In this document: positions 14,648-61,372 of the stretch, in pieces
Layout: every line of letters starts with the position of its first letter
Position numbering within the stretch: position 1 is the first letter of the stretch
From: Heterodontus francisci
Lineage: Eukaryota
Assembly (NCBI RefSeq): GCF_036365525.1
Contig: NC_090404.1
Span: forward strand, 45,641,544 to 45,705,543
Reading direction: 5' to 3'
Length of the DNA: 64,000 bases
Translations under genes and position numbers: made by a program
Notes under the pieces: generated by a model
Told to the model about the DNA's origin: nothing
Seen by the model: only the letters and a program-made list of their open reading frames with translations
Databases searched by the model: none

Positions 14648-15068
14648 GAAATGCAATTGAATGCAAGTTTTTCCTACTTTCCTGTTAGTTTCCACTTTTA
14701 TTGTGGGTTATTGTATTATTTATTCTCTTACGTATCTTCTAGAATATGTCACTGATGTTACTTTTCTTGCCTGCTTGATGTTCCCATTTTGGTTTCAATG
14801 GATTTCCCATGCCTTCCTGTTCTCCATTATGTTTGATTGTATTATTATACTTTACAATGTTATTGACCTGTCTTATTTTCAATCTGGATGATTAGTTTCA
14901 ACACTGAAACAACTGATTGGAGGTTAAGTGATAGTTTTCAACTCAGGATCATGTGCCAAAGCCATAAATTTCGCACAGAATTCTGTAAAGCTACTGCTTT
15001 CGTTGGGAGTCGGATCAATAATTTTCTTGCTCTCTCTCTTTCTCTGACTCTCTCTGTCTCTCTTTCAG

Positions 15069-33098: not shown

Positions 33099-33547
33099 TA
33101 ATTACCTGGTTTATCCCCGCTACCCTTCTTGAATAATGGTACCACATTCGCTGTCCTCCAGTCCTGTGGTACCTCTCCTGTGGCCAGGGAGGATTTGAAA
33201 ATTTGTGTCAAAGCCCCTGCAATCTCCTCCCTTGCCTCACATAACAGCCTGTGATGCATCTCATCTGGGCCTGAGGATTTATCCACTTTTAAGCCCGCTA
33301 AAACAGCTATTACTCCCTCCCTTTCAATGCTAATATGTTCAAGTATATCACAATCCCCCTCCCTGATCTCCATACCGACATCGTCCTTCTCCATAGTGAA
33401 CACCGATGGAAAGTAATCATTTAAAACCTCACCTCTGTACTCTGGTTCCACACAAAGATTTCCACGTTGGTCCCTAATGGCCCTACTCTTTCGCTGGTTA
33501 TCCTCTTACCCTTAATAAGCTGACAAAAGGCCTTAGGATTTTTATAA

Positions 33548-36500: not shown

Positions 36501-36710
36501 GAATTAGTTTAAACCCCCCCGAAGAGCACTAGCAAATCTCCCCCCCAGGATATTGGTACCCCTCTGGTTCAGGTGAAGACCATCCTGTTTGTAGAGGTCC
36601 CACCTACCCCAGAAAGAGCCCCGATTATCCAGGAAACCACAACCCTCCCTCCTACACCATCCCTGCAGCCACGTGTTCAACTCCTCTCTCTCCCTCTTCC
36701 TCGCTTCGCT
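33548..36710 (-). mobile_element. Young CR1 with near-complete ORF2 (APE+RT) and the 3' end of ORF1
   Basis: ORFs 36139-36345, 34614-36188 and 33617-34717 join into one ORF2 (YFNARS, ISETW, GDFN, SDH, PQGSVLGP, FADD) via two frameshifts in G runs. Confidence 0.95.
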
Positions 36711-37559
36711 ATCTTTATCTTGCCCACCAGTGTTTCTTCATGTCCCCTCTTCGCTCTCCTAATTACTTTTATAACTGCCACCTTACACTTTTAATACTTC
36801 TCTAGTGCCTCCGCTATTTTCAGCGCTTGGTATCTGCCATAAACCTCCTTTTTTCCTGATCCAATCCTCTATATCCCTTGACATCCAGGGTTCCCTGAAC
36901 CTGTTAGTCCTACCTTTCACCTTAACGGGCACATGTTGGCTCTGAACTCTCACAATTTCCTCTCTGAATGACTCCCACTGGTCTGATGTAAACTTTGCGA
37001 TAAGTAGCTGCTCCCAGTGCACATTGGCCAGATCATGTTTTATCATATTGAAATCAGCCTTCCTCCAATTCAGGACCTTTATTTCTTGTCCATCTTTGTC
37101 CTTTTCCATAACTACCTTAAATCTTACAGATTTATGGTCACTATCCCCGAAATGCTCCCCCACTAACACTTCTACCACTTGACCGGTTTCATTGCCCAGG
37201 ATTAGGTCCAGTACTGCCCCTTCTCTTGTAGGACTTTCTACATACTGGCAAGTACTACATACAAACACCAAGAACGGCAACGAGAGAGACAGGCGAATCC
37301 CTGACCATCGACTGCAATTCATAAATAGCTGCTCTTCTCAGTCACTTTTCTCCATTTTGGTTCGTTCTGAAGCATACTGTTGTGCTATGCATACCTTCCA
37401 TCACTGCCTTTGTCGATAAACTTGCAAGCTTGCAATGACTGAATGTTAGACGTGAGGATTCCAAAAATCTAAGGATTAGCAGCAGCGATTCTTTTGAACG
37501 GAAGTAGGCATTGGATTGTAATCAAAAATTTGTAGGTGAAACAATAAGCTTACAATAGG

Positions 37560-39570
37560 AAGTCTTCAAAGATGAGATGTTTTGGCTATAGGGTAGGTGC
37601 ATTTCCATGAGAGGGAAGGGAAGAGCATCCAAAGCTAGAGCTTCATGAAAGCTTAAAGCCATAGAGGTTAAAGTGATACAAAACTGGAAGCTTATGATAA
37701 TTCAGTAGAAAAGCTGGCTGAGTATAGGAAGTGCAGGAGAGAACTGAAAAAGGGAATAGAGGTGAACAGAAAGAGTATCAAATTAACAGCTAAAATAAAA
37801 GAGAACTCAAAAGCCTTTTATAAAGTTATAAGTTGTAAAATGATAGTTTAATGAAAGGTGGAACTGAGTAGGGACCAAAACATATATTTTTGTGGAATTA
37901 GAGAGCATGGCTGAGTTGCTAAACAAATAATTGCCATTTGTCTTCACTAAAAACGAGGATGCTGCCAATGTCACTGCAAATATGGAGGTAGCAAGGAATA
38001 TAGGTTAAAATAGATAATGATGTGGTAATTAAAAGGTCGATAAAGCGTCAAGTAAAAAGTCAGCTGGATGGACGGAATGCATCCGAACTTGCTAAGGGAA
38101 GTAAGGGTGGAAATAGATGAAGTTTTGACCACAATATTCCAATCCTCCTCAGATATTGGAGTGGTCCCACAGGACGGGAGCATCTCAAATGTTAGACCTT
38201 TGTCCAAAAAGTGGAGTGTGATAAACTCGACCACTACAGTCAGTCAGCCTAACGTTGGTGATAGGCAAGTTGTTAGAGGCAATAATGTGAAGCAAAATAA
38301 ATTGGCATTTTCGAAAATGAGGGTTAATAATTGGCAGCATCTCAGATTTGTTAAAGATAAATTGTGTTTAGCTAATTTGGTTCAGTTCCTTGATGGAATA
38401 ATGGAAAGAGTTGAGGGTAGTGTAAATGATGCTGATGTCAATTGAAATTCAAATGGCGTTTGATAAAGTGCCACATAATGGACTTGGTAGCAAATTTTAA
38501 GTCCACCATCTTAAAGGGGCAGTGGCTGCGTGGATACCAGATTAGGCAAGAAGCAAAAAGCGGGGAGTAGTGGTACACAATTATCTTTCAAATTGGAAAC
38601 AAGCATACAGTGATGCCAGCTAGCATTATTAATATTACTGTTCTTTTGGATATAAATAAATGACCTGGACTCGGAGATACAGGGCTAATTTCAGAGCTTG
38701 GAGATGACATAAAGCGTGCAAATGCAGTAAATAGCGAAGAAAACATAGACTGATTGTTCAAGTAGGTAGACACATGGCCTGTACAAGTAAATGCAGAGAC
38801 GTGTTAAGTGGTGCATTTCAGTAGAAGGAATGAGGAGAGACAATATAAACTAAATGATACAATTTTAAGAGGGGGTGGGGGGGGGGGGGGTGTAGGAACA
38901 CCCTGGGACTGCACGTATACAAATATCTGAAGATGGGATGCTAAGTTGAGAAGACCGTTTAAAAAATAAGCATACAAGATCCTTGGATTTATCATCAGAG
39001 ATAGAGATTGCAAATGCATGTAAATTATTCTAGATCTTAAAAATCACTGGCTAGGCCCCAACTAGAATTATGTGACTATTTTATGAACCGCACTGACGGA
39101 AGGAAGTTAAACCCTTAGGAAGGGTACAGAGGAAATTTACAATAATGGTACCAGTGATGGTGGATCTTACTTACGAGGGGGTTTTAAAGAAACTGGAATT
39201 GTTCCTTTCGGAGCAGTGCATGATAGGCAAGAGTTAATAGAGGTGCTAAAAATCACAAAGTGTTTTGAAAGAGTAATTAAGGAGAAACTGTTTTCAATGG
39301 CAGAGACGTCAGTAATAAGTGGAAAAGAGTGAAAAAAACAAGAACTGGAGGAGAGATGGGGAGCATTTTATGCATTAAGTTGGTACGATCTGAAATGCAC
39401 TGCCTGAGAGCCTGGTGGAAGCTGATTCAATTGTAACTTGCAAAGGTAAATTGGATAAAAACGTAAAGGGAGAAAATTGCAGAGCTGTGGAGGAAAAGCA
39501 GGGAGTAGGACTCATTGGATAGTTCCTTCAAAGAGCCATGGAATGATCTCCTTCTGTGTTGTATCATTTA
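37560..39570 (+). mobile_element. Old CR1 ORF2 remnant
   Basis: DGMHPNLLREVRVEI and CLANLVQF motifs; decayed 3' end. Confidence 0.75.
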
Positions 39571-40691
39571 TGATTTCTTCGCTATTTACTGCATTTGCAC
39601 GCTTTATGTCATCTCCTAACTCTGAAATTAGCCCTGTATCTCCGAGTCCAGGTCATAATCTATGATTTCAGATGCTCTAAATTTTTATTGTTGCTTCTTA
39701 TCTGGCTGCCAATGGTGGGACGATGAAAATCAGAGATGTGCGAGGGGCCAGGATTGAAGAGAGAACAGTGATCTCGGAAGGTTTTAAGGTTGGAGAAGGT
39801 TTCAGAGACAAGCAGGAACGAGGTCGTAGGGGGATTTGACCACAAGGATGAGAATTTTAAATTCGACGTGTTGTACAACTGGAAATAAATGTAGGTCAGC
39901 AAACACAGGGGTGATGCATGAACAGGACTTGGTGCGAGTTAGGATCCAGACAGCAGAGCTAAATTTCGCGGAGGATTTCGCAGTGGGAGGCCAGCCTGGA
40001 GAGATTGTATTCAGCAAGGCCTCAGATAACAAGAGCATGAATTGGGGCTTCAGCAGAAGATGGGGTGAGACAGGAGCTGTTACAGTGGTAGATGTAAAAG
40101 GCCTAAGTGATGATAAGGATACGGGGTCAGAAACTCATCACAGGATCAAATCTGTTGCCCAGGTTAGGAACAGTCTGGTTCCACCTCAGACAGTGACGTC
40201 AGAGAGATGAAGTCAATTAGGGAAGAAGTGAAATTTAGGCACATTTCATGAGAACAAACTATAACAGACATAACATTATGAGGATTTGTTATAACTTAAA
40301 TGGAAAGAAGGCTATTTGGATTGGTCCATAAACAGGGGGCATAATTTTAACATTATCAGGCAAAGAATGAAGGACGAGATTAGCAGAGTTATTTTATTAT
40401 GGAGAAAGTTGTTTGGACATGGAATGCCTGGCCAGAAGTTGATGATGTTAACAGAATCAGCGATTTCGTTTAAAAGGAGGCAGAGAAATATTTGAAGAAC
40501 AAAATATACAGAAAGCACAGGGCAAGAGAACCTAAGGGTAACATTTGTGCTGCAACACTCGTTTGTGGGAACTGGAAGCATATGGCGAAACTGTGCACTT
40601 CCAACCTCTCGCCCTCCAGCCATAATGGTGAATAGATAAAGAATCACGGGTGGAAGACGGGAAATTGCTACATGTGCGTTCCCAGCCTCCA

Positions 40692-40705
40692 CCACCAGAG
40701 GGCGC
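40692..40705 (+). promoter_or_regulatory. Candidate CTCF binding site
   Basis: CCACCAGAGGGCGC fits the CTCF core CCASYAGRKGGCRS exactly and lies in a small non-TE, CpG-containing patch. Confidence 0.55.
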
Positions 40706-41449
40706 AGCGGGGTTTCTACGACGAAGTGGTTAATCTTGCTTTTGCAAAGAACCAGCACTGGCGCCGTGAATTGAATTAATCTTCTGTGTTATAAACGCTA
40801 GGATTCTTTCAGTCTCTCAACTAACATTACCAAAACCTCAGTGCTTTCTCTGATCTCTGAAGTCTGATGTACAAACTCGCCACTCCTATAAATCCAAAAT
40901 TCACTTTCTTTTGGAAACGTCTGCTTCAAAACATTTCCCGGTAAAGTTCCAAAATCAAACTGTTCCATAAGCAGGAAAATGAATGCATATTATCGGTAAC
41001 AAACAGCAACAACAACTTATATTTAGATAGTTCTTTTTAGTGTAATAAAGCGTCCAAGGCACGTCACAAAAACGTTAAAAAACAAAATTTGACAGCGATC
41101 CACATTGCATGGCCAAAAGCTTGGTCAAGGAGGAAGGATTTTAGAAGTGTCTGGAAGGAATAAAGAGAGGCAAAGAGGCAGAGAGGATTCGGAAGGAATT
41201 CCAGAGCTTATGGTCGAGGCAGCTGAAGGCATGGCCACCAATTGTGGAACAATTAAAATCAGCGATGCTGAAGATGCCAGAAGCAGATGAACGCAGGTAT
41301 CTCGGAGAGTAGAGGGGTTGGAGAAGATTAAACAGATAGGGATGGGCGAGTCCATGAGGGATCTGAAGACAGTGATGAAGATTTTAAAGTCAAAGCTTTG
41401 GTTGATCGAGTCATAATGTAGGTCAGTCAGCCTGCACAATGATAAGGTG

Positions 41450-42028
41450 TCATAGAGTCATAGAGTTATATAGCACAGAAACAGGCCCTTCGGCCCATCG
41501 TGTCTGTGCCGGTCATCAAGCAACTAACTATTCTAATCCCATTTTCCAGCACTTGACCCGTAGCCTTGTATGCTATGGCGTTTCAAGTGCTCATCAAAAC
41601 ACTTCTTAAATGTTGTGAGGGTTCATGCCTCTACCACCTCTTCAGGCAGTGCGTTCCAGATTCCAACCATCCTCTGGGTGAATTTTCTTTCCTCAAATCC
41701 CCTCTAAACCTCCTGCCCCGACCTTAAATTTATGCCCCCTGGGTATTGACCCCTCCGCTAAGGGAAAAAGTTTCTTCCTACCTAATCTATCAATTTCCCT
41801 CATAATTTTGTATATCTCAATCATATCTCCCCTCATCCTTCTCTGCTCTAAGGAAAACAACCCTAGCCTTTTTAGTCTCACTTCATAGCTGAAATGCTCC
41901 AGCCCAGGCAACACCTTGGCGAATCTCCTCTGCACTTACTCCAGTGCAATCACATCCTTCCTATAGTGTGGTGCACAGAACTGTACACAGTACTCCAGCT
42001 GTGGCCTAACTAGCGTTTTATACAGCTG
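41450..42028 (-). mobile_element. CR1 3' fragment inserted in the L2-like element
   Basis: QRRFAKVLPGLEHFSYEVRLKRLGLFSLEQRR; (TCATAGAG)n tail. Confidence 0.88.
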
Positions 42029-43189
42029 TGAACGAGACTTGGCGTGATTAAGAAACGGTCAGCAGAGTTTTGGATGATCTCAGTTTTAGGGAGATTGGGC
42101 AAAAGTGCATTGCAGTAGTCGAGTCTCTAACACAACAAAGGTGTAAATGACGTTTTCAGCAGCAGATGAGCTGAGGCAGGGGCATGAAGGTGGAAATAGT
42201 CGGTTTTACTGGTGGGGAGTATGGACATGTGGCCAGAAGCTCATTTCCTGGTCAAATATGACACTAAAGTGGCAAACAGCTTCGTTTACCTTCAGACAGT
42301 TGCCAGGGAGAGAATTTGATTCAGGAGCTAGGGAATGGACTTTATAACAGGAACTGAAGACAATGGCTTCTGTCTTCCCAATATTTAGTTGGAGTAAATT
42401 TCTGCTCATCAATTACTGGTTGTTGAACTAACAATCTGACAATTTAGAGACAGCAGAAGAGTCAAGAGATGTGGTGGTGAGGTAGAGCTGGGAGCCGTTA
42501 GCACATATGTGAAAACTATTGTGCTTTCAGATGCTGTTGCCAAAGGGTAGCAAGTAGATAAGAAATACAAGGAGGAATAGGTGAAATAATAATAGATATA
42601 CGTCTAATATCTGACCACCACTACATGCCACGTCGAGAGTTAAGATGTTTTTACCCCAACGCATTGATCATTCTTTATTCAGAAATTATCACGCGATAGA
42701 AACATTATTTGAACGTTCGTTCAATATCTAAACTCCATTCTCCCAAAACTCCCACTGTGATATCCTACATTTCTTTCCAATTTCAATTGCCACAGCCATA
42801 CACCAACTACAAATGACAATATGATAAGCACGGAGTCATTGGGAAAGTCGCAATGGCACCTGGAAACCTTCTTTCTCAGACTGGAGTCTTGGACTTGTCC
42901 TATCCCATAAAACGTCTCCACAAGCAAGCAATCCCTATATAACACAACTCATAGAACAGCAATATTTTGTGATCTTGAATGTGAATGTATCAGTGATATT
43001 TCAGAAGCAGTTGTTTTTTTTAAGTAATCTCTTGTATGCCATCTGCACTTTGCACAGACAGTGGTTGCGAGCCAATCATATTATCTTAAGAATCAATAGA
43101 TGGCCTCTAATTTTGAAAATATTTCAAAGCAATGCTAAGGAAAATAAAACAAACGAAAATTAACTTGAGACCATGATTTCAATAAATAA

Positions 43190-43400
43190 ATGAAGACTTG
43201 AATTTCTATCGCATCGTTCACAATCTCACTGCATCCAAAACGTTTTTCGAAGAGTAGTCACTTTTGAAATGTATGAAAGGCGGCAGCTAATTTGCACACA
43301 GCAAGATCCCACAAATGGAAATGTGATAATGATGAGATCATCTGTTTCTGATGTTGGTTGAAGGATAAATACAGGCTGGGACATGAGGGAAATGGTCTTT
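43190..43400 (-). mobile_element. DeuSINE/SacSINE-like fragment
   Basis: GGCAGCTAATTTGCACACAGCAAGATCCCACAAA...GATGTTGGTTGA.GGATAAATA resembles the recalled Deu-domain SINE consensus. Confidence 0.55.
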
Positions 43401-43442
43401 TCATAATTATAGAAGGGAGTAAAACATATTTTGCAATTTTAG

Positions 43443-43753
43443 GACTTGCTCCACCAACCATCAATCTGTTCTATTCTGGAACTGATGAACTGAGAATAAA
43501 GGGGTTGGTGCAACTGTTTTGCATCATCAGTGAATACAAACCAGAAAGCATTACAGTGAGCTGGGAGAAGAATGAAAACTCCATACAGTCTTTACCACCA
43601 CATGCCCAGCTAAAACATCGATCGGAGATTTTAGCTCCACAAGCATCCTTAAAGTGCCCCTGCAGGACTGGAGCAGCGGTTCTGTGTACAGCTGCCAAGT
43701 ATCCCATTCTGCAACCAACAGTATCCAGCGGAAAGACATTCGATCAAAATCAG
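43443..43753 (+). pseudogene. IgNAR: IgNAR heavy-chain C1 domain exon, frameshifted
   Basis: TTTTAG acceptor, CAG|GTGAG donor. LAPPTINLFYSGTDELRIKGLVQLFCIISEYKPESITVSWEKNENSIQS/TTTCPAKTSIGDFSSTSILKVPLQDWSSGSVYSCQVSHSATNSIQRKDIRSKS closely matches recalled nurse shark IgNAR C1 (LLKVPLQEWSRGSVYSCQVSHSATSSNQRKEIRSTS). At 311 nt, about 4 nt are missing near 43590. Confidence 0.92.
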
Positions 43754-44399
43754 GTGAGGAAATGAAACCAATTCAGAAGGTTGCAAGGGTGAAATATGCT
43801 CACTTTTTGTATCCGTATTGGATTAGTTGGGATGCTATTGTGACCATTTATCAGTGAGGATTGATCATTCCCGAACTGGCTCAGTGAATGACATCTGTAC
43901 CAATTCATGGTGAACTGAAATTCTACGGTAAAAATCATTGCAAATATTTCAGCAGTGACGTCTGAGCTCCCTGAAGGTGCTCTTTTAAAGAGAAAGCATA
44001 GGCACGATGGACCGAATGGCCTCCTTCTGTGCTGTATCATTCCCTATTTCAGCGGCAATGACTGATCTACTGGATGGTGCTCGCTGCCAGGCAAGCATTT
44101 CAAAAGGCACTAAAATGTCTTGACATGAATATCATGTAACGCATCCAGCATAATCTTTTATGATATTGCAAACAATTCATAAAGATTCCCTCACATCCTA
44201 TTTAATTACTTCACCAAATTAATCCAGGCAAAACGGGACAGAAATACAGAACAAAAGTGTATCTTCAGAAACGAATGGATCAAATTTAACAGTGCAGTTC
44301 AGTTACTCATTACATTTGTGAGGATTTATTATATTTATTACAGGGTTCGGTACAAAATTCACTATTCATTATTTAGCTAGTTAGCCTTACATAAGTAGC

Positions 44400-46110
44400 G
44401 AGGAAAATGATAGAGTCTATTATAAAGGATGTGATAAAACCTGGAGAGCATAAAATGGATTGGGGAAAATCAGCATGGGTTTACAAAAGGGAAATCATGC
44501 TTAACAAACCGACTGCAGTTATTTTGCGGATGGAACTAGTAGAATAGATAAGGGAGAACCAGTGGATGTGGTGTATTTTGATTTTCAGAAGGCTTTTGGT
44601 AAGGTCCCGCATAAGAGGTTAGTGTGCAAAATTAAAGCACATGGGATTGGGGGTAACATAATGGCATGGATTGAGAATTGGTTGACAGACAGGAAACAGA
44701 GAGTCGGAATAAACAGGTCTTTTTCCAGGTGGCAGGCAGTGACTAGTGCGGTACCACAGGGATCAGTGCTTGGGCCCCAGCTTTTCACAATATAACTTGG
44801 GTGGGGGAACTAAATTTAACATTTCCAAGTTTGCAGACGACACAAAGCCAGGCTGCAGGGTGGGGGTGGGGGAATGTGTGCTCTGAGGAGGATGCAAAGA
44901 GACTCCAATGTGATTTGGACAAGTTGGGTGAGTGAACAAATGCGTGACAGGTGCAGTATAACGTAGATAAATGTGAGGTTATCCACTTTGGTTGTAAGAA
45001 CAGAATGACAGATTATTATCTGAATGGTAATTGATTTGGAAAGAGGGAGGTGCAACGAGATCTGCGTGTCCCTGCACACCAGTCGTTGAAAGCAAGCAAC
45101 TTAGAAGGCGAATGGTATGTTACCATGGAGAGATACAGCACTGAAACAGGCCCTTCGGCCCACCGAGTCTATGCCAACCAAAAACCACCCATTGATACTA
45201 ATCCTACATTAATCCCATATCCCCGACCACATCTCCACCATTCTCCACCATTCTCCCACCACCGACCTACACTAGGGGCAATTTACAATGGCCAATTTAC
45301 CTATTAACCTGCAAGTCTTTGGCTGTGGGCTGCACCCGACAGAAACCCACACAGTCAGAGGGAGAACTTGCAAACTCCACACAGGCAGGACCACGAACCG
45401 AACACGGGTCACTGGAGCTGTGAGGCTGCTGTGCTAACCACTGCACCACTGTGCCGCGCTTTTTGGCATTGCGGCCTTCATTGCAAGAAAATTTGACTAC
45501 AGGAGCAAGGATGTCTTACTGCAGTTATACAGGGCCTTGGTGAAGCCACATCTGGCGTATTGTGTGCAGTTTTGGTCTCCTTATCGGAGGAAAGATGTTC
45601 TTGCCATGGGAAGAGTGCAAAGAAGATTTATTAGGCTGATTCCTGGGATGCCAGGATTGAAGTATGAGGAGAGATTGGGTCGACTAGGCTTATATTCACT
45701 AGAGTTTAGAAGAATGAGAGGATATTTCATAGAAACCTATAAAATTCTGACAGGACTAGACAGGCTAGATGCAGGGAGGATGTTCCCGATTGCTGGGGAG
45801 TCCAGAACCAATGGTCACAGTCCTAGGATATGGGGTATGCCATTTAGAACCGAGATAAGGAGAAGTTTCTTCACTCAGAGGGTGGTGAACCTGTGGAATT
45901 ATCTACCACAGAAGGCAGTGGAGGCCAAGTCATTAAATATATTCAAAACAGAGATAGATATATATCTTAATGCCACAGGGATCAAGGGATATGGGGAGAA
46001 ATCGGGCACAGGGTACTGAATTAGACGATCAGCCAAGGTCTTTGTTGAATGGTGGAGCAGGACCGCAGGGCCGAATGGCCTACTCCTGTTCCTATTTCAA
46101 TGTTTCTATA
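44400..46110 (+). mobile_element. CR1 LINE 3' half in the IgNAR intron
   Basis: DFQKAFGKVPHKRL, VPQGSVLGP and YCVQFWSPY motifs; 3' tail near 46100. Confidence 0.9.
45124..45457 (-). mobile_element. HE1-type SINE nested in CR1
   Basis: Reverse complement of the SINE at 10883. Confidence 0.85.
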
Positions 46111-46349
46111 TTTCTAAAATTGCCTACATGAAATGAAATAGTTGAGAGCGGGATAGAGAATGTAAGAACGGTGAGTGAGAGAGGGATAGACTTTGAGAGA
46201 GAGCTGTCACTAAATTAAAGAGACAGATATGATCAGAAAACCAATAGAAAACAACAAACTGTTCTTTCTTTTATAGATTTTCTTTAAAACGAGATAGGCC
46301 AGAGATATATGACTAATTGTACAACAATTCTAGGGAGCCATCAAGCATG

Positions 46350-46770
46350 ATCTGCCCATTTGATTTGTCTATCTCTCTCTCTTTCTCGCTCTCTCCATCT
46401 CCGTCAGCTTCTCTCTCTGTGTCTGTCACTCTACCACTTTACAACCGGCTATCTCTCTCTCCCCCTTTGTTTCTATGTATCTGTATGTCTGTTTTTATCT
46501 CTGCTGGTGTCCGTCTCTCTGGCTCCCTTTATCGCTCTCTCTCCCCCCTTCTCTATCTCTCTGCCTCTCATTCTTTCTCTGTTTGTCTCTCCATCCTACT
46601 CTCTTTGCTGGTGCCTCTCTGTCTGCTGCTCTGTCCCTGCCTGTTTCGTTCCATCAAGTTCTCTCTCCTTTGGCCTGTTTCTGTTTCTCATTATCACTCT
46701 GTTGCTCTCTATTCTTCTTTTTATGTCCCTTTCTATCCAGCTCTCTTTTTGTCTCTCTCCCTGTCATTCA
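46350..46770. repeat. CT-rich low-complexity tract
   Basis: Degenerate (CT)n; the overlapping Ser/Leu-rich ORFs are artefacts. Confidence 0.85.
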
Positions 46771-46939
46771 GTTTAATTACATTTTTCAAATTTGTGATTC
46801 AACTTAACCTGCGTGAAAACAACAGAATTATGTTTTAAATTCAATAGTAATCAGTGAAAGATATGCTCATATCTTGCCCAGCTATCAGTTGTCACTGAAA
46901 TTACATTCTTCCGAAACAAATGGATTTATCAACATTGAA

Positions 46940-47340
46940 GCCTGGTCTGGAGGGCATTAGCTATGAGGAGAGGTTGGATAAACTCGGATTGTTTTCACTG
47001 GATCGACGGAGGTGGAGGGGCGACATGATAGAGGTTTACAAAGTTATCAGTGGAATGGACAGAGTGGATTGTCAGAAGCTTTTATCCAGGGTGGAAGAGT
47101 CAGTTACTAGGGCACATATGTTTAAGGTGCGAGGGGCAAAGTTTGGAGGGGATGTGCGAAGCAAGTTCTTTACACAGAGGGTGGTGAGTGCCTGGAACTC
47201 GCTGCTGGGGAAGGTGGTGGAAGCAGGTATGAGAGCGACGTTTAAGAGGCATCTTGACAAATACATGAATAGGATTGGAATAGAGGGATAGGGCCCCCAG
47301 AAATGCAGAAGGTTTTAGTTTCGACAGGCATCAGATCAGC
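46940..47340 (+). mobile_element. CR1 3' fragment
   Basis: PGLEGISYEERLDKLGLFSL...FKRHLDKYM; same subfamily as 13392-14647. Confidence 0.88.
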
Positions 47341-48029
47341 GCAGCATGAGAACGGGAACAATTTGTCCCAATTAAATCCCAGTCAGTGGAATTCCTGATC
47401 TGTGGAATAAATGATTGGAAATATTATTAGCACAATAATAGCCCCACCACCTCCGTGTGAAGGATGAAGAAGCAATAAACTTCCCTGGATCTGGGGTTGG
47501 ATACCATTTCCTGCTGAGTTCGTTGATTTCACCTGATGGCGTTCGGAGCCTGAAATTGGTCTTAGTGTCCCTAAATTCACGAAACAGCAATAGTGCATGG
47601 TTCTGTTCCTGATCTATGATAAGTGCATGTGTGCTATTTGTGGGAAAAACAAGAGAGGACTTGGCTGCAATATCCTCACGGCAAAACAACCTGCTCTTAT
47701 TTACTGTGTTTCACGCCTTATGAACAATAGACCATTGGCTGAGGTACCAGACGAACCAATAGATCCCGTGCAGGAGTGAGTATATGAGAGGATACAATAA
47801 GGTAAATACTGCAATCAGACACAATCATAAACATTAAAAACCGAGCCTCTAGGATTGGTGAGCACCATTGCACTGTAATAGTCAGCTATGCACACTATAA
47901 ACGTCTTATGTTCTGCCACCAGACTCCATTGAGTTAACAAATCCCAACAGGTGGCTTTTTTGAAAGATAGAATCGCCTAGGCACATCCGGGTTTCTGAGC
48001 AGAAACCCGTTGTTTCCTGTTACGTAGGA

Positions 48030-49290
48030 TTTCATAGAATATACGGCGTAGTAACAGGCCATTCGGCCCAATAAGTCCATGTGGGCGTTTATGCTACACT
48101 CAAGCCTCCTCCCATATTTCTTCATCTAACTCGGAGAGCACAATGCTCTGTTGCTATCTCGTTCATATGTTTACCCTCCATCTAAATAAATTTATACTAT
48201 TCGTTTCAACCACTCCTTGTGGCAGACAGTTCCCCGTTTTCATCTCTCTCTACGTAAAGAATCTTGTTCCGAATGCCCTATTTAATTTCTTGTTGACGAC
48301 CTTATGTTGATGGCCACTAGCTTTGCTCTTCTCCAAGTTGAAAAATTCTCTTTGTGTCTACTCTACCAAAATATTTCTTAATTTTTAAAACCTCTATTAG
48401 GTTACCCCTCAGCCTTCTCTTTTCAGGAGAAAAGAGACCTCGCCAGTTTATCCTCTCCTGAAAGGATTGCCCTCGTATTCATGGTATCATCCTTGTAAAT
48501 AATTTTTGAGCCTTCTCCGATTCCTCTGTATCATTTTTGTTATAATATGGCAACTAGATTTTATGCAGTACTCCAGGTTCGAAACATGTTTAGCATTTAC
48601 CTATGAACTCCTTTATCTTTCAATTCTATCTCAATAGAAATATACCCTAGTGATTGATTAGCTTTTGTATGGTTTTAGTTTTAGAGCACTGGAACAGGCC
48701 CTTCGGCTCACCGAGTCTGTGCCGACCATCAACCGCCCATTTATACTAATCCTACAATAATTCCATAATCCTACCATATCCCCACCTGTCCCTATCACCT
48801 ACCTATACTAGGGGCAATTTATAATGGCCAATTTACCTATCAACCTGCAAGTCTTTTGGCATGTGGGAAGAAAACATAGCATCCGGAAGAAGCCCACGCA
48901 GACGCAGGGGGAACTTGCAAACTTCACACAGGCAGCACCCAGAATTGAACCCGGGTCGCTGGAGCTATGAGACTGCGGTGCAAACCACTGCACCACTGTG
49001 CCACGCACACTTCATTGACCTGTGCTTCTACTTTTAATGATTTATTCATTTGTACTCCCAGATCCATTCGCTCCTCTTCCACATTTATATTCTTATTTTC
49101 TAGGTAATATGTACCCATTTAACTTTATTGGCACAAGGCATTACTTTGCATTTGACTATGTTAATATAATTGGCCAATTATATTCCCATTCGGCAAGTTT
49201 CTTCATATCTTCTTGCAATTTGTTTCATTCCTCCTCAACATTGACTATTCTCCGAAATTTGATGTAATTCGCAAATTTAGAAATTGGGTT
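48030..49290 (-). mobile_element. Old CR1 3' remnant with a nested HE1-type SINE (48673-49003, minus)
   Basis: CR1 3' hairpin near 48055-48075; complete SINE reverse complement. Confidence 0.75.
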
Positions 49291-51078
49291 TCTGATTTTA
49301 ACATCCGAATCATTAGTGGTCCTCCAATCTGAGGAAGTCAGGTGGAATTCGATGTGTTTGCACCTCTGCTGAGGGCAGGTCTGGACGGGGCTCTGATGTT
49401 GTTGCTGTAGGATAGGCTGTTGGCATTCATTCTTTGTAATGATCAACTCAGAATGTTCAATCATGAGCGAGACTCAAGGCAACCTTTTTCAGCGGAGCGT
49501 GTACTGGAGTAACAATGACAGTAGACATTTATAAAGCACTTCACAGAGCTGAAAATACATGGATAGGAAATGAATCGAAAGTTGCCTGTTTTCTTTGTTT
49601 TAGAAAGACGAGGAGACGATTTGAGTGTTGAAAACAGCCCAATTCTGACACATGAAATTTCTTCTTGTGGTTGTCTCAAAATACCTCAGTGTTGAAACTC
49701 AGTTTGCTGTTTAAACTTATGGAGATAATTCATTTTATTACAATCAGTCATGTAGCATTCTCATTTCTTCTTGCCTTCCTCACATTTCTTTTTGCTGCCA
49801 AAAACTTTAACCTTGGGAAATAAGAGCACTCTTGTAACATACACCGTGAAATATGCTTCACTCATTTTATGAAGAGATGGTAACTTAATGGGATGAAATC
49901 AGGGATCTCAGTGAGTCGACAAATACATGTTTACATCTGCCAATTTGGAAGGAGAGCTAATGGAAATGATTATAATCCAGCAGCAGTTTGCACAACGCTC
50001 CCCTCTGAAACATCGTTGAGAGAAATGAACCAATTTTACTGTAGATTTAAAAAGTAGCAATGTTGGACATGCACAATGAATAAGTAACTTTGACCCCTTG
50101 TAGAGATACTGAGAGTATCAGAGTTTACATCTTCACTGAATATATGAAGGTGGCTTCTATAATTGTTAGATAAATGCTTTTAACTTGCAGTGAAAACAAC
50201 GAGGGTGAATGTTCATTCTTTTAAGTTGCATGTCATGCATAAATAAAATATGATTCTTGATTCTTATGGTCAGAGCGAGCATTTTACTTTTAAAACGGAA
50301 GACGTGTTTTCCAATATCTCTCGGTACTTATCTTAATTTTGTAAAGGTACGGATACTAGAAAAAATCTTCCCACTGTTACTGATATCAATATCAAATACC
50401 TCTGGGCCAGGTATATCATCGCAACATTATAGACTTCCTCACTTTACACTCTTCACACAATGGTATATTTAACCTCAACCTTCCAGCAATGGGTCCTTCC
50501 TAGACCAGAGTGGTAGTTCTTATGTTTTCCTAAAAATATTGCACTCTCTAAGTGAAGCAGTGAAATTGGTGTCAAATGATGTCGAGCATCTACATGTTGG
50601 TTTTGAGGGCATGCTTCTGTTCATTGCTCAGACCGAGACAAGTTCATTTCTACCCAAAGTTTGGGACAGAAAAAGAGGGGAAATTGCGTTACTTTCTTGG
50701 AGGTATATTGGAACCTACCGCATTCAGGCCATAGAGCTGCAATTGACCGTCAGCACCTCAGTTAGTCTGATGGGTGAACGTTTGCAACATGAGTGCGTGG
50801 ACAATTAGTTCCAATTAAATCCAAGTTAGAGAAATTCCCGATCTGTGGAATGCATAATCGGAAATATTATCGAGGACATCGTCCAGAGAAGCCAGAGGAT
50901 GAAAACAACAAGACCAGAAGGGAGCGGCATCTTATTAGCTAAACAGAAACAATCTGAGAAAAGGCATAACCTACTCCAGTAAGTAGAATTATTTTACATC
51001 TCTTGGAGTATGTTGCTGTTGTTGTTACCCGTGAATTCAACCTGACAGCTTGAAATAACCATTCCCCCTTCTTTCCAG

Positions 51079-51335
51079 ATGATTGTCATGAGGCAGACAT
51101 TTCTGTCAATATATTGAACCCCCTCTTTGAAGAGATTTGGACACAACGAACAGCGGCCATTGTTTGTGAAATCCTTTACAGCGATTTAGAAAACGTCAGC
51201 GTGTCCTGGCAAGTGGGTGGGAGTGGGAGAACGGAAGGAATCGAGACTCAGAATCCCAAGTGGAATGGAAGCAAATTCGCCATCGTTAGTAAACTGAAAG
51301 TCACCGTAGCAGAGTGGAACAGTGGGGGTGAATGA
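51079..51335 (+). pseudogene. IgNAR: IgNAR C4 domain exon, 3'-truncated
   Basis: CTTTCCAG acceptor, phase 1. DDCHEADISVNILNPLFEEIWTQRTAAIVCEILYSDLENVSVSWQVGGSGRTEGIETQNPKWNGSKFAIVSKLKVTVAEWNSGGE* matches recalled IgNAR C4 (DCRQTDISVSLLKPPFEEIWTQQTATIVCEIVYSDLEN). Homology stops just before the second canonical Cys. Confidence 0.9.
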
Positions 51336-52229
51336 TGCTGTGCCTTTTCTCTCTCATTCTGTCCTCCTCCCTCTATCCATTCATCGATCTACTCTATCCC
51401 TTGCACGCTTCCATGTATAGAATTTCCCATGGCATTACAGAAGGAAAATCGAGAGTAAGTGTTGTCTTCACGGATAGAGAGTTGGAGATAATTAGACAAG
51501 GGTGCGAGACTGTAATTCAGTTCTTATTCCAAAGTCAGGCATTCTGCCCTTACTTTCTGATTGTCATTACAAATTCGTCATTCCTTATTTTAAATATAGA
51601 GTGTAATTCTGCATTATCACGCTGTCTTTACACAGTCATTAATAATGCTTCAATGCCTTTGGTTACCTCCCCAGACCTCTGATTGCACTACACTTAAACC
51701 AACTGCACGTCCCTACTCCCGCAATACCGGCATGTTTTACTATTTAGCTGTAATATTGCTCATTTGAAGTCAAAGTATTATCTAAAATTTGGGACATGGT
51801 GCATGACATTAAAGTCGGAAATGCATACATTTAATCACTATGTGAGAACTACACCTCTAAACACTTCACTGGAAGGCTTGAAAACCTTAAGACTATACCA
51901 GATTCGCTATGAGTTCAGCGACGATTCACATAAACCGTTGCATTTTTCTGGAAATTGAATTATTGTTGTATGATGACAGATAACAAATGATTCCCCTGTA
52001 ATTTAAACATTCGCAGAGATACACGGGTAGTGAGGCTTTCAGGACTCAGGGCTTGTGGTCAATCACTTCTAGAGGGCAACTGTGGAAATTCAGAAACATC
52101 TTCTCATTTCATAACATTAGTCAAATATTGTGTTTTTGGTTGCATGCTTTTGACTATTCAGTGTGATTATACATCATTTGCCTCACTCTGGTACTCACTG
52201 GGTTATCATCCTATCTTTTCTCACTGCAG

Positions 52230-52238
52230 GTGAACTAG
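52230..52238 (+). pseudogene. Possible IgH TM2 (cytoplasmic tail) exon, Val-Asn-stop
   Basis: Strong acceptor CTATCTTTTCTCACTGCAG|GTG AAC TAG, shaped like the IgH M2 exon (VK-stop); AATAAA at 52775-52780. Confidence 0.4.
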
Positions 52239-53856
52239 TGGCTGCTTGGCCTGGAGACACTTACGGTTTTATTCAAAGTTTGTGTGGGAACTTTTATCAG
52301 ATGCTGACGACAGACAGGATTGAATTGCTTCTCTATCTCACTGTTATCGTATGCTCCACTGTACACTTCATCTTGTATTCTTACATAGTCTCAACCAAAC
52401 CATGAAAACTGTTTGCTTCATTTTCTGCCATTACCTCAAGCCTTAACTCTTGCGTCATTGAGTAGTAGTGTTAAATAGAATTTATCGTAACTGTAACAAA
52501 CCAGTGAACTCGGGAAATTCCGCAGAATCAATTAAAATAAACTGAGGAGAAATCATTGAATATCGCTGTGTGTTAGCAGCAGCTTGAAATAGCGGGAGTG
52601 TTCCCTCTGTCTGTCATTAGCTAAATACGTGATCACGATGTCACTGGGACCAGTAACCAGATAAACTTTCCTACTACGCATGTGTGCTTGTAGACACACT
52701 GCCATGGGTGCAGATCTTCCCCGTTAATCTTGGATTGGGCAGTACAGAGGGTCCAGGTACTCCTTATGGAAAACAATAAAAATGCATTAAAATAATTCTA
52801 AAATCACGTGGTTGTGTAGATTGCAAACAACATCTGTAGAAAGAGTAAGCATTCCTCTGGTCGCGTTTAACATTGATAATCGCATTTGTGAAAAAATCCT
52901 CTGCTCAGCATTTCTTGCAGAATCAGGAAGTGGTCGCAGCTGAATGTCGTAACGATTTCATTAATGATACATAACAGAGGAAATCTTCAAGAATGTCTTC
53001 ACGCTGTCCTTACGTACAAAGCCTAGAAGAGCACAGCGATGCATCTTCCCTTATCAATGTAATATGAGGAACATCTGCATTCATTTATGACACAGTTTCA
53101 GGGCTTTACATACATGCAGAACCCCAATGGAAACTAAAGAACATCTTGACTGACTGTTAGTAACACACGTCCGTTGAAGTGTTGCAAATTCGATGCCGTG
53201 TTTCAACCCATGGTTAAGAATTCATCAGGAAGTTTGTTCCTGCGAGATCATTTGTGCCTTCAAATCAATTTCTCTGAGCCCCTATTTCTGACATTTCTAA
53301 AAATGATGCATTCACAATGTGCCAAGGAATACCAAGCAGGGCCAACGTACATCTCCCTTCTATCATATTATATTGATTATTTCCAGAATTACAATATAAA
53401 TTGAGTCAAAATGCGATATTAGGATCGATTTTGTTTCTAATGTGATATAGGAATATAAGGAACAGGAATAGGCCATTCAGTAACTTGCGCCTGCTCAGCC
53501 ATGCAAATAGATCATGGCTGATCTGTGCACCAACTCCATTGCCTCGCCTTAGTTTAAGATACTTTGGTACCTTTCCTGACAGTATTTGCACTGGTTTGTG
53601 GAAATGATTTTTAAGAAATAATGGGGACTTGTCCCAAATATTTTGGAATTTAAGTGCTTTTATCAAAGGATTTTATGTTCATCTTTGTTTTGAATGTTAC
53701 TACTGTGTAATCGTTTATTCATTACTTATAGGCTCTGTCAACACAAAGGTTTACAACGTAATCAAATAAACTGCTTCATACCGTTGTTAAATGTCCTGGG
53801 TTTAAATCGAACACTTATTTTTTGTATGCATTTTATTCACCTTTTAGTTTGATGAA

Positions 53857-54085
53857 TTTTTTTTCTTTTGGGCCTCCTTATCTCGAGAGACTGGATATGC
53901 GCCTGGAGGTGGTCAGTGGTTTGTGAAGCAGCGCCTGGAGTGGCTATAAAGGCCAATTCTGGAGTGACAGGCTCTTCCACAGGTGCTGCAGAGAAATTTG
54001 TTTGTTGGGGCTGTTGCACAGTTGGCTCTCCCCTTGCGCCTCTGTCTTTTTTCCTGCCAACTACTAAGTCTCTTCGACTCGCCAC
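53857..54085 (-). mobile_element. RTE LINE 3' fragment
   Basis: Reverse complement of about 30225-30445. Confidence 0.85.
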
Positions 54086-55244
54086 AATGAATAACTTAGT
54101 GAAATTCTCCTATAAGCATTACAAACGCTACTCCTGGAGCAAATAAAGTCATCTGGGGATTAAATTCAATCGAATCGCCAGTTAACTGAATCCCATTTAT
54201 TTACCATTGATATTGAATAGACCAGAGAATCCGAAGGATTATGTGTTACTGGAGCATGAGAAATAACCCGGACAATTAACCCAATCTCATTATTAAACGG
54301 AATAACAATTACTACGACAAGATCCAGGCATTCTAACATATTGAGTATTCAGTCTTAGCACGGTTTTCTGGTGATTAATTTGATGAATTTATTCATTCAA
54401 CACAGAAAACCAGTTACTAATTCACCGAAGTGACTCTTTCAATTCAGCACAGCTAAATATATTGCAGCCATTTCGTAGAAAACTGCAGAGAGCTAACAAC
54501 TGGAGATTGATGCTTGTGATATTCCGCTACATGGATTTACTGCCTATCTGTGGCTTTCCTTTGTTACATGATTCGAAACGTTAAGCCATTTAATTTAAAC
54601 CAGTCATGTCTCAATTGAAACAATATTCAAAGGATATCGCAGCAAGGTATTGCTGTATTAATATCACAATCAGCAGTTTCCATTGGCACATCATTAAAAT
54701 GACCAGAAAGATTAAGCATGTAAAAATTTCTTGGTATTACTTACGGCCTACTGCTTCATACCTTCCCATGGTGGACCATTTTCCCTGTTTTATGGCAAGA
54801 GTTAACATGTTTAACTTAAGTTGTTTCCATATTTTACAAAAACAATTTTCATTTATATCGCCCTGCTACGTTGTACCACTTCCCAAGGCGCCTCATATGA
54901 GCGTTATGAAACAAATATTGGCACCGAGCCACATATGAGGATTTTAGGATATAAAGTAAGGTAAATAATGGATAAAATTCAATTTAACAGCTTACTAAAG
55001 TTGCAACTTGTTTGGATCTTCTCCTGCATTGCAGGGGAATCTTTGATGGAACCACCAAAGTTATGGTGATGGAGCCAAGGGATCCTGTAATGAAATTCCC
55101 TGCATAGAGTGTCTTCAACATTTTGGAGGAAATTTGTTTGGATGCTATACTAGCTGAAGCACTGCCCTGCTAAAAGAAAAGGTTCACACGTTCTGTAAAA
55201 TTGGAATTTCAAACACACCGAGAAAGCACTGGGAAGATAATAGC

Positions 55245-56936
55245 CCAGAATAATTTGAATCAGTATTCACCAAGGAGAAGGACTTGGTGGATGATGAGCC
55301 TAGGGAAGGGACTGCAGATAGTCTCAGTCATCTCATTATCAAAAAGGAGGAGTTGTTGGGTGTCTTGCAAAGCATTAAGGTAGATAAGTCCCCAGGGCCT
55401 GATGGGCTCTACCCCAGAATACTGAGGGAGGCAAGGGAAAAATTTGCTGGGCCTTGACAGAAATCTTTGCATCTTCATTGGCTACAGGTGAGGTCCCAGA
55501 GAACTGGACAATAGCCAATGTTGTTCCTTTGTTTAAGAAGGGTAGCAAGGATAATCCAGGAAATTATAGGCCGGTGAGCCTTACGTCAGTGTTAGGGAAA
55601 TTATTAGAGAGGATTCTTCGGGACAGGATTTACTCCCATTTGGAAACAAATGGACTTATTAGCGAGAGGCAGCATGGTTTTGTGAAGGGGAGGTCGTGTC
55701 TCACTAATTTGATTGAGTTTTTTGAGAAAGTGATGAAGATGATTGATGAAGGAAGTGCAGTGGATGTTATCTATATGGACTTCAGTAAAGCCTTTGACAT
55801 GGCAGACTGATACAAAAGGTGAAGTCACACTGGATCAGAGGTGAGCTGGCACGATGGATACAGAACTGGTTCGGTCATAGAAGACAGAGTGTAGCAGTGG
55901 AAGGGTGCTTTTCTGAATGGAGGGATGTGACTACTGGTGTTCTCAGGGATCAGTGCTGGGACCTTTGCTGTTTGTAGTATATATAAATGATTTGGACGTA
56001 AATGTAGCTGGTCTGATTAGTAAGTTTGCGGACGACATAAAGGTTGGTGGAGTTGCGGACAGTGATGATTGTCAGAGGATACAGCAGGATATAGATCGGT
56101 TGGAGTCTTGGGCAGAGAAATGGCAGATGGGGTTTAATTCGGACAAATGTGAGGTAATGCATTTTGGAAGGTCTAATGCAGGTGGGAAGTATACAGTAAA
56201 TGACAGAACGCTTAGGAGTATTGACAGGCAGAGAGATCTGGGCGTACAGGTCACTGAAAGTGGCAACGCAGGTGAATAATGTAATCAAGAAGGCATAAGG
56301 CATGCTTGCCTTCATCGATCGAGGCATAGAGTATATAAACTGGCAAGTCATGCTGCAGCTGTACAGAACTTTAGTTAAGCCACACTTAGAATATTGCATG
56401 CAATTCTGGTAGCCACACTACCAGAAGGACGTGGAGGCTTTGGAGAGGGTACAGCAGAATTTACCAGGATGTTGCCTGGTTTGGAGAGCATTAGCTATGA
56501 GAAGAGGTTGGATAAACTCGGATTGTTTTCACTGGAACGACGGAGGTGGAGGGGCGACATGATAGAGGCTTACAAAGTTATAAGCGGAATGGACTGAGTG
56601 GGTAGTCAGAAGCTTTTTCCCAGGGTGGAAGAGTCAGTTACTAGGGGACATAGATTTAAGGTGAGAGGGGCAAAGTTTAGAGGGGATGTGCGAGGCAAGT
56701 TCTTTACACAGAGGGTGGTGAGTGCCTGCAACCTGATGCCGGGGGAGGTGGTGGAAGCAGGTACCATAGAGCCGTTTAAGAGGCATCTTGACAAAAATAT
56801 GAATAGGAAGGGAATAGAGGGATACGGACCCCGGAAATGCAGAAGGTTTTAGTTTAGGCAGGCATCAAGATCAAAGCAGGCTTGGAGGGCCGAATGGCCT
56901 GTTCCTGTGCTGTACTGATCTTTGTTCTTTGTTCTT
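55245..56936 (+). mobile_element. CR1 LINE, 5'-truncated (RT)
   Basis: PLFKKGSKDNPGNYRPVSLTS, QGSVLGP and KFADD motifs; (TTTGTTC)n tail. Confidence 0.92.
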
Positions 56937-57249
56937 ATATAAAGATCCAGGAAAACAAACAAAGGTGTAAAATTAAGTCCGATAGCATGAAGGCAATGTA
57001 ATTGAAGTCTAGGAGCAGGGGGATGGAATCCAATGAAATATGTTGTAAATTGATGTTATCCTCAGAACACATTAACCTGTGCCAGGTTTCACCAATCTGC
57101 TTCTTACCATTCATATAATCTGAAAAAATGCCAGGAAATTCATCCTGAGTATCTATTTCAAGTGGAAGGGTTAACAGAACAACAAAACACTACAGAAAGG
57201 AAATTAAGCAGAACGTCTTGAACTATTATTATATATTCGACCCTTGACC

Positions 57250-57552
57250 AGTGACCCGGGTTCGGTTCTGGGTACTGCCTGTGCGGAGATTGCAAGTTTT
57301 CCCTGTGACCGCGTGGGTTTCCACCAGGTGCTCCAGTTTCCTCCCACAGCCAGACTTGCAGGGTGATACGTAAATTGGCCATTGTAAATTTCCCCTAGTG
57401 TAGGTGAGTGGTAGGAGAATGGTGGGGATGTTGTTGGGAATATGGTAATAATGTAGGATTAGTAGAAATGGGTGGTAGTTGGTCGGCACAGACTCGGTGG
57501 GCCGAAGGTCCTGTTTCAGTGCTGTTTCTCTCGATGACTCTATGACTCTATG
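57250..57552 (+). mobile_element. HE1-type SINE, 5'-truncated
   Basis: Starts near the B-box GGTTCGGTTC; (GACTCTAT)n tail. Confidence 0.85.
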
Positions 57553-58329
57553 ACCGTTAAACAACACTTAAACTAAAGCCAATTTGCTGGACGTCCAGCT
57601 GAAATAATGATGTGTCATAATGTCACCAGAGCTCAATTTGTGATTTCTGGTTATTTGTGTATTTGTGTCAAGAAGCTTCATTTTCTCTGACTGCATTATG
57701 CACCATCTAGTGACTAATTGCTGATATTGGAGAAATAAAGGAGCATAGGAACATTCTGGTCCAATTTAGGCTGTTCCTGTATTCAGTTAGCTCATGACTG
57801 ATCTCTATCCCACTTGCATTTACCCGCCTAGATCTATGTCTAATACCTATCGAGCTCAGTGTTGAAAATTGCATTTTCTCAGGATCCATTAACGTTTGAT
57901 GGAGTGTTCCAGATTTCCACTACTTTATTTATGAAAAACTACTTCCTAATTTCACTCCTGAATGACCTAACACTAATTATATGATGGCGCTACCTTGTTC
58001 TAGAATGTTGCAATCAGGCAAAGTAGTTTCACCATCTATCGCCCGTCGAATGTTTTATCATTTTAATGTCTTCCACTAGATCACTGCTCATCTTCTAAAC
58101 TTAAGGGAATACAACCTAAGCTTGAGCAATTTGTTCTTGTAATTTAACTCTTTCAACATTTTGTTAAATCTGCGCAATGCACCGCTAAGCCCAATGGAGG
58201 CATGGTGCCCAGAACTGAAAACAGTATTCCACATGTATTCCGATACAACTGTAACAGAACTGACTCTCCTTTGTACTTCAGCTTCATTGAGCTAAAGGCC
58301 AATATTCATTTTAGTTTATTGATTACTTA

Positions 58330-61125: not shown

Positions 61126-61301
61126 CCTGTGCCTTATTGTGCCCAGCCACTAACGTTTATTGACTTCTACATATGGCCACCTGCAATTCTTTGTTTCTGT
61201 TCAGTTCCTAACATGTCACATTTAACTTTCTCCTATCTGTTTTCATTCAGCAAGGAAGCTATGTTAGTTGTGACAGGTCACTCAGCAGCAAGAAGGATTC
61301 A

Positions 61302-61372
61302 TTTCCTGACTGGGAACAAACTTGGACCACAGCACTGAGAGAGCTGAATCTTAATCACTAGATCACGAGGGA
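61302..61372 (-). pseudogene. tRNA-Glu(CTC) pseudogene
   Basis: Minus strand TCCCTCGTGATCTAGTGATTAAGATTCAGCTCTCTCAGTGCTGTGGTCCAAGTTTGTTCCCAGTCAGGAAA aligns to vertebrate tRNA-Glu-CTC, with many transitions and a broken T-loop. Confidence 0.75.

What the first reader, a model, noticed from the sequence alone, without database searches (positions are those of the whole stretch)
43443..51335. IgNAR locus in which C1 is followed by C4, with no C2 or C3 exon in the genomic DNA
Seen: a C1-type and a C4-type exon 7.3 kb apart. The interval is CR1, SINE, CT-repeat and unique intron, and I find no Ig domain in it. Known: canonical IgNAR is V-C1-C2-C3-C4-C5, and from recall short transcripts lacking C2-C3 occur in some sharks. 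Inference: this may be a decayed copy of a gene in which the short form is fixed by genomic deletion rather than made by splicing. It could instead be pseudogene decay.
Basis: partly seen in the sequence, partly recalled or inferred. Interest (0 to 1): 0.7.

Follow-up and report, generated by a model that had tools for sequence, protein, structure and literature searches.

The report
Dead shark antibody gene, deletion-riddled
This shark antibody gene copy does lack two of its middle domains, but it has also lost most of its antigen-binding part and both tails and carries a frameshift, while six complete sister copies keep those domains, so it is likely an ordinary decayed duplicate rather than a working short antibody gene.

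Summary
Observation confirmed: IgNAR C1 (43443-43753) is followed by C4 (51079-51333) with no C2 or C3 remnant. Interpretation mostly not supported. Six intact IgNAR clusters on the same contig all keep C2-C3, and no second C1-C4 copy was found. The window copy is a wreck: only 54 nt of V remain, fused to mid J-C1 intron (D and J gone, no leader within 97 kb); C1 has a 4-nt frameshift; a 10.8-kb deletion cuts C4 before its second cysteine and removes C5, the secretory tail and the TM exon. C2-C3 went in a 1.47-kb deletion running from a CR1 retrotransposon, inserted about 41 nt before C2, into the C3-C4 intron (4-nt microhomology, CR1 tail lost). Introns are 15% diverged from sister copies while dN/dS is 0.29-0.51, so the copy worked for much of its history. 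The order of lesions cannot be fixed, leaving about 15% for a once-functional genomic V-C1-C4-C5 gene. RNA-like runs show canonical splicing of the intact copies. Incomplete IgNAR clusters and a spliced C2-C3-less form are published for bamboo shark.

The parts
31381..37249 (-). CR1-type LINE (with two younger nested CR1 insertions, about 32341-33098 and 33542-36790) whose 5'-truncated end sits 12 nt from the V remnant; its 3' end is cut; no leader or promoter region found beyond it
   Evidence: pieces 36793-37249 and 33099-33541 are contiguous in 3 of 3 other copies tested
37262..37315 (+). Remnant of IgNAR V framework 1 (18 codons, up to the first Cys), fused to the middle of the J-C1 intron; about 4.98 kb holding the rest of V, the D segments and J is missing
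   Evidence: 52 of 54 nt identical to an intact V; V RSS, D RSSs and J lie in the missing span of the intact copy, none in the window; junction bridged by a 1,411-nt read contig with 0 differences
37315..43442 (+). 3' half of the J-C1 intron, collinear with intact copies, with window-only repeat insertions
   Evidence: 14% substitutions
43443..43753 (+). IgNAR C1 exon, splice sites intact, 4-nt loss near 43588 that shifts the frame
44360..46115 (+). Window-only CR1 insertion with a nested SINE in the C1-C2 intron
46116..46939 (+). End of the C1-C2 intron (with CT-rich tract), stopping about 41 nt before the C2 acceptor
46940..47344 (+). 405-bp CR1 3' fragment lacking its last ~50 nt; marks the C2-C3 deletion junction (4-nt microhomology with the C3-C4 intron at 47341-47344)
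   Evidence: 16 of 16 other copies run on into the 3' tail that is absent here
47341..51078 (+). Remaining C3-C4 intron, collinear with intact copies, with a SINE near 48674-49004
51079..51333 (+). IgNAR C4 exon, acceptor intact, cut about 22 codons short (second Cys lost) by a 10.8-kb deletion that also removes C5, secretory tail and TM; new stop at 51333-51335
51328..63907 (+). 3' flank of the cluster, collinear with DNA downstream of TM in intact copies, lacking further blocks of about 4 kb and 16-19 kb that intact copies share

Best explanation
This is a non-functional duplicate of a shark IgNAR gene cluster in which C2-C3 was removed by a 1.47-kb deletion starting inside a CR1 retrotransposon, likely as one of several private decay events rather than as a selected short antibody gene. 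Shown: six complete sister clusters; loss of most of V, all D and J, the leader region, C2-C3, the end of C4, C5 and both tails; a frameshift in C1; short microhomologies at the C2-C3 and C4 junctions; loss of the CR1 tail. Inferred: the CR1 inserted first, about 41 nt before the C2 acceptor, and a later double-strand break was repaired by microhomology-mediated end joining between its 3' UTR and the C3-C4 intron; the cluster arose by whole-cluster duplication before the six intact copies radiated, was under purifying selection for a while, then died (birth-and-death evolution of shark Ig clusters). It makes no antibody now: it cannot rearrange and has no secretory or membrane exon.
For: 6 of 6 complete clusters on the contig have L-V-C1-C2-C3-C4-C5-Sec-TM with no stops in the matches. 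Genome searches: C4 in 7 IgNAR places (6 intact + window), C1 in the same 7, C3 in 6 intact + 1 orphan, C5 in 6 only (each scored 150 candidates). The window copy has four separate coding-region deletions or losses plus a frameshift and lacks two more multi-kb blocks in its non-coding 3' flank, so large deletions are common here. A second relic, an orphan C2-C3 piece, lies at C34:27.795 Mb. CR1 at the C2-C3 junction and CR1 abutting the broken V are the same age within error: 21/402 against 25/446 private differences, Fisher p 0.88. Amino-acid changes fall 12 on the window branch, 5 on the intact stem, 2 unplaced. Chance of 4 or more nt microhomology about 0.016 per junction. RNA-like runs laid on an intact copy show the C1-C2, C2-C3, C3-C4 and C4-C5 joints. 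Three of seven bamboo shark IgNAR clusters are incomplete (PMC8692893, passages).
Against: Lesion order is not shown. Only 12-14 amino-acid changes on the window branch against 36 expected if neutral throughout (P 3e-6 to 3e-5; branch dN/dS 0.33-0.39, interval 0.17-0.65), which puts death late (by hand, about 0.01-0.02 substitutions per site ago, upper limit about 0.045), later than the CR1 ages of 0.04-0.056. The 12-against-5 excess is not significant (p 0.14). C1 donor and C4 acceptor are intact and in the same phase, so the C2-C3 loss is the one lesion that need not kill the gene. No listed read contig was seen bridging the C2-C3 junctions (table cut).
Confidence: 0.8

Rival explanations
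1. The C2-C3 deletion came first and the cluster then worked for some time as a genomically fixed V-C1-C4-C5 gene, dying later through the V-D-J, C1 and C4-TM lesions.
For: C1 donor and C4 acceptor intact and in phase; long purifying selection on C1 and C4, with a death estimate younger than the junction CR1; a secreted form lacking C2-C3 is reported in bamboo shark (PMC8151367 passages; PMC8692893).
Against: The CR1 age is only an upper limit for the deletion and is probably inflated (best-hit copies, subfamily differences counted as private); the V-side CR1 is equally old; no second copy or intact carrier; deletions also hit non-coding flank; one lesion of five has no special claim to be first.
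Confidence: 0.15
2. The gap is an assembly collapse or misjoin.
For: The junction lies in a high-copy CR1; a bridging contig for 46940 and 47344 was not among the pieces listed.
Against: No N, 59.5-Mb contig; both sides are 12-20% diverged from every sister copy and collinear; clean microhomology junction with CR1 tail loss; unique bins on both sides have similar read-contig depth, about 14-15, and the V junction is bridged without a difference (same sample, so not independent).
Confidence: 0.03
3. The exons belong to IgW or another isotype whose normal layout puts these domains side by side.
For: IgNAR C2-C5 are homologous to IgW domains (PMC4279169 passage).
Against: C4 is 86-88% identical to the IgNAR copies but 52% to the IgW-like loci at C34:1.5-2.0 Mb; introns and 3' flank are collinear with IgNAR clusters over about 30 kb.
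Confidence: 0.01

Closest known systems
IgNAR heavy-chain cluster (V-D-D-D-J-C1-C5-Sec-TM) of sharks; horn shark IgNAR secretory form P0001
   Same: Exon sequences, splice sites, intron and 3' flank order match the six intact clusters.
   Different: No leader, V cut to 54 nt, no D or J, C1 frameshifted, C2-C3 absent, C4 cut, no C5, Sec or TM.
Incomplete IgNAR clusters of whitespotted bamboo shark (3 of 7; PMC8692893) and the silent GcIgNAR3 of nurse shark (PMC11641339)
   Same: A non-functional or silent IgNAR cluster lying among working ones.
   Different: Which exons the bamboo shark relics lack is in a figure I could not see; here the breakpoints are mapped.
IgNARshort delta-C2-C3 secretory transcript of bamboo shark (Zhang et al. 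2020, PMID 32311460, not held; seen only as cited in PMC8151367 and PMC8692893)
   Same: C1 followed by C4.
   Different: That is a V-bearing cDNA with C5, ascribed to alternative splicing; this is a genomic deletion in a dead copy.
LINE-associated genomic deletion with microhomology (recalled from human L1/Alu literature; no paper read on it here)
   Same: A 5'-truncated LINE at the junction, flanking DNA lost, short microhomology.
   Different: The CR1's own 3' tail is lost, which points to a deletion after insertion rather than target-site loss during insertion.

Membership tests
IgNAR cluster (descent) | Constant exons closest to IgNAR C domains | tested here: met
   C1 83-90%, C4 86-88% to IgNAR; 52% to IgW-like loci
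IgNAR cluster (descent) | VNAR-type V upstream of C1 | tested here: met
   54-nt remnant, 52/54 identical to an intact V
IgNAR cluster (descent) | Collinear cluster architecture | tested here: met
   Collinear blocks from 37315 to about 4 kb past the window end
Functional IgNAR gene | Leader, complete V, D and J segments with RSS | tested here: not met
Functional IgNAR gene | Open constant exons with both Cys | tested here: not met
   C1 frameshift; C4 lacks second Cys
Functional IgNAR gene | Secretory tail or TM exon | tested here: not met
   Absent from window plus 30 kb downstream; junction skips them
Genomically fixed short IgNAR (V-C1-C4-C5) | C2-C3 absent from DNA with in-phase C1 donor and C4 acceptor | tested here: met
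Genomically fixed short IgNAR (V-C1-C4-C5) | An intact carrier or paralogue with the same layout | tested here: not met
   0 of 6 intact clusters; no other C1-C4 locus
Genomically fixed short IgNAR (V-C1-C4-C5) | Deletion older than the inactivating lesions | tested here: inconclusive
   CR1 ages equal within error; exon dN/dS suggests late death
Genomically fixed short IgNAR (V-C1-C4-C5) | Orthologue with the deletion in related species | not testable with these tools
   No related shark genomes are held
IgW | Domains closest to IgW, with VH-type V | tested here: not met

The most novel reading that the evidence does not exclude
A CR1 landing at the C2 branch-point zone, followed by a clean in-frame deletion, turned one horn shark IgNAR cluster into a working hard-wired V-C1-C4-C5 antibody gene, the genomic counterpart of the spliced short form of bamboo shark, which later died; the same spot before C2 was hit three times in this genome, so shortening of IgNAR by two-domain steps may recur.
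Probability: 0.15. Interest if true: 0.6.

Novelty: new member of a known kind. Interest (0 to 1): 0.2.

Why it matters
As a relic it matters little: it adds a mapped pseudogene to the IgNAR inventory of this shark (six intact clusters, two relics), useful for annotation and for VNAR repertoire work, and shows retrotransposon-linked deletion and gene conversion at work among antibody clusters. If the deletion proved older than the death of the gene, it would be a first case of an IgNAR isoform fixed in the germline and would show that C2-C3 were dispensable for a secreted shark antibody.

Tried and rejected
C2/C3 remnants in the interval: none above shuffles. Orphan C2-C3 piece at 27.795 Mb as the excised part of this copy: rejected, it extends 1.4 kb past the window's 3' breakpoint and in the shared intron is no closer to the window (213/1142 differences) than to an intact copy (144/1058). 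RAG-type germline joining as cause of the V-intron fusion: no RSS at the junction or between V and C1. C1-C4 splicing from intact copies: 12 joint rows listed from 3 RNA-like runs of one sample and one unlabelled run, none joins C1 to C4; contigs drop rare forms, so this is no evidence of absence. Expression of the window copy: no RNA holder on record; two RNA-like runs left 9 of 30 bins without cover and exon cover came from short pieces that also fit sister copies; not evidence either way. Protein search for short IgNAR forms: 11 hits at E<=1e-60, 371-1182 aa only; by name none is a C2-C3-less form, domain content not checked one by one. A genome-wide count of V segments was not obtained, so a displaced leader or V more than 97 kb upstream is not excluded. 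The primary IgNARshort paper is not held; supplement search of PMC8692893 gave no layout of the incomplete clusters. Five paper searches listed no description of horn shark IgNAR clusters or of a genomic C2-C3 deletion; subscription journals are mostly not covered.

Full report
Setting. The window lies at G000:C34:45641544-45705543 in a 6.0-Gb genome. The domains of the horn shark (Heterodontus francisci) IgNAR protein P0001 are 99-100% identical to two clusters of this genome, so the species is most likely that shark (inference).

Observation. The first half of C1 matches the solved IgNAR domain 4q97 as best single-domain hit; the second exon matches 2mkl at E 3e-33 and 4q9b at only 4e-15, and is 88% identical to the fourth constant domain of P0001. 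DNA and protein searches for C2 and C3 in the interval found nothing above shuffled controls.

Sister copies. Searches of the genome with C4, C1, C3 and C5+Sec (150 candidates scored each) give six complete IgNAR clusters on the same contig, near 33.80, 34.64, 37.17, 40.08, 41.75 and 43.55 Mb. In fetched 50-kb regions all 6 have L, V, C1, C2, C3, C4, C5, Sec and TM. There are two relics: the window copy and an orphan C2-C3 piece at 27.795 Mb. No other locus has C1 and C4 without C2-C3. The intact copies tested differ by 3.2-3.6% in introns; the window copy differs from them by 14.7% (1,630 of 11,067 sites, K2P 0.165), so it split off before they radiated or were homogenised.

Anatomy, against the 33.80-Mb copy. 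(1) No leader or upstream match within 97 kb; an antisense CR1 ends 12 nt before a 54-nt V remnant. (2) The remnant is fused to mid J-C1 intron; the missing 4.98 kb holds the V RSS, the D RSSs and J. (3) C1 has lost 4 nt near 43588. (4) The C1-C2 intron stops about 41 nt before the C2 acceptor, a 405-bp CR1 piece follows, and the sequence resumes about 730 nt into the C3-C4 intron; 1.47 kb is gone. The interval is still 7.3 kb (6.2 and 7.2 kb in two intact copies) because about 2.5 kb of repeats were inserted. (6) The 3' flank lacks blocks of about 4 kb and 16-19 kb that two intact copies share (direction not polarised).

Mechanism of the C2-C3 loss. All 16 other copies of this CR1 that I fetched (best hits) continue into a tail of about 50 nt that is absent here, and the CR1 and the intron share 4 nt at the junction. 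The simplest path (inferred) is insertion first, then a deletion from the CR1 3' UTR into the intron by microhomology-mediated repair. The C4 junction likewise shows 4 exact shared bases (6 by blastn overlap). Chance of 4 or more is about 0.016 per junction.

Timing, for and against. Over 186 codons of C1 and C4, dS is 0.12-0.17, matching the introns, and dN 0.047-0.060 (6 pairs). With four other shark proteins as outgroups, 12 changes fall on the window branch, 5 on the intact stem and 2 are unplaced; 36 would be expected on a branch neutral throughout. So the copy was functional for much of its separate life. The CR1 at the C2-C3 junction has 21/402 private differences (16/396 at a stricter threshold) and the CR1 next to the broken V 25/446; they cannot be told apart (p 0.88). 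Both are upper limits for the deletions beside them and are likely inflated. By hand from these numbers death falls about 0.01-0.02 substitutions per site ago (up to 0.045), inside the window in which the C2-C3 deletion happened. Gene conversion, seen as near-identical patches between the orphan and one intact type, blurs such dating. The order is therefore open. Since C2-C3 loss is one of five coding lesions in a deletion-rich copy and has no intact carrier, private decay is favoured (0.8) over a once-working short gene (0.15).

Reads. DNA read contigs cover all 30 bins, with unique bins at depth about 10-16, and one 1,411-nt contig bridges the V junction with no difference; the C2-C3 junctions were not among the listed pieces. 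These runs are of one sample that may be the assembly's source. RNA-like runs laid on an intact copy show the four canonical constant-exon joints.

Literature. Canonical layout and 2-20 clusters per species: PMC5192425 and PMC4279169 (passages). Bamboo shark: 7 clusters, 3 incomplete; a TM form lacking C4-C5 and a secreted form lacking C2-C3, ascribed to splicing (PMC8692893 passages and supplement search; PMC8151367 passages). Nurse shark: 3 loci, one silent; short forms lack C4-C5 (PMC11641339, part 1 of 4 read). Linkage of IgM, IgW, IgNAR and TCR alpha/delta, and growth of IgW and IgNAR by two-exon duplication: PMC12227049 (passages). The primary short-form paper was not available, and figures showing the bamboo shark relics could not be seen. 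Five searches listed no account of this locus.

Verdict. A real genomic C2-C3 deletion in a dead IgNAR cluster; an ordinary product of cluster birth and death, newly mapped. Interest 0.2.

Noticed in passing
about 41 nt before the C2 acceptor: window 46939/46940; L003 (G000:C34 ~40073825-40074720) and the 43.55-Mb copy; L033 (G000:C34 ~27794954): The same spot was hit three times: the window's CR1, a different CR1 subfamily (71% alike, about 895 bp) at the same base within 1-2 nt in two intact copies, and the 5' edge of the orphan C2-C3 piece 3-4 nt away. It lies at a branch-point-like motif (recalled consensus). Possible insertion or breakage hot spot.
   Followed up: partly
G000:C34:27794954-27798595 (L033): Orphan IgNAR relic holding only C2, C3 (both open, 92-97% aa) and part of the C3-C4 intron; a 400-nt patch differs from the 33.80-Mb copy at 1 base but from the 40.08-Mb copy at 22, while the part further 3' is 13.6% diverged: looks like recent gene conversion into a relic.
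   Followed up: partly
window 47341-47430 and 50700-50870: A ~175-bp element occurs twice in the C3-C4 intron (after C3 and before C4) of all copies and only at IgNAR loci in a genome search (14 matches); the first copy is unusually conserved (4/135 differences) and the deletion ends inside it. Candidate regulatory element, or a trace of the C2-C3/C4-C5 duplication; untested.
   Followed up: partly
L041:2686-6719 (C3-C4 intron of an intact copy): RNA-like contigs cover the C3-C4 intron almost throughout but the C1-C2 intron little; may reflect slow splicing at the C3 donor, where the C3-TM short form would branch. Contig depth cannot rank this.
   Followed up: no
window 14867-15973 (+): Intronless rhodopsin-family GPCR ORF (7tm_1, E 2e-16); a basking shark gene model fuses a similar GPCR to IgNAR (P0002), suggesting GPCR genes neighbour IgNAR clusters in more than one shark.
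   Followed up: no
G000:C34:33.80 and 34.64 Mb; 40.08 and 43.55 Mb: Two pairs of nearly identical clusters with matching exon spacing: very recent duplications or retained haplotypes.
   Followed up: no
G000:C34:1.47-2.01 Mb: IgW-like loci, two of them with two C2-like/C3-like exon pairs, i.e. extra constant domains.
   Followed up: no
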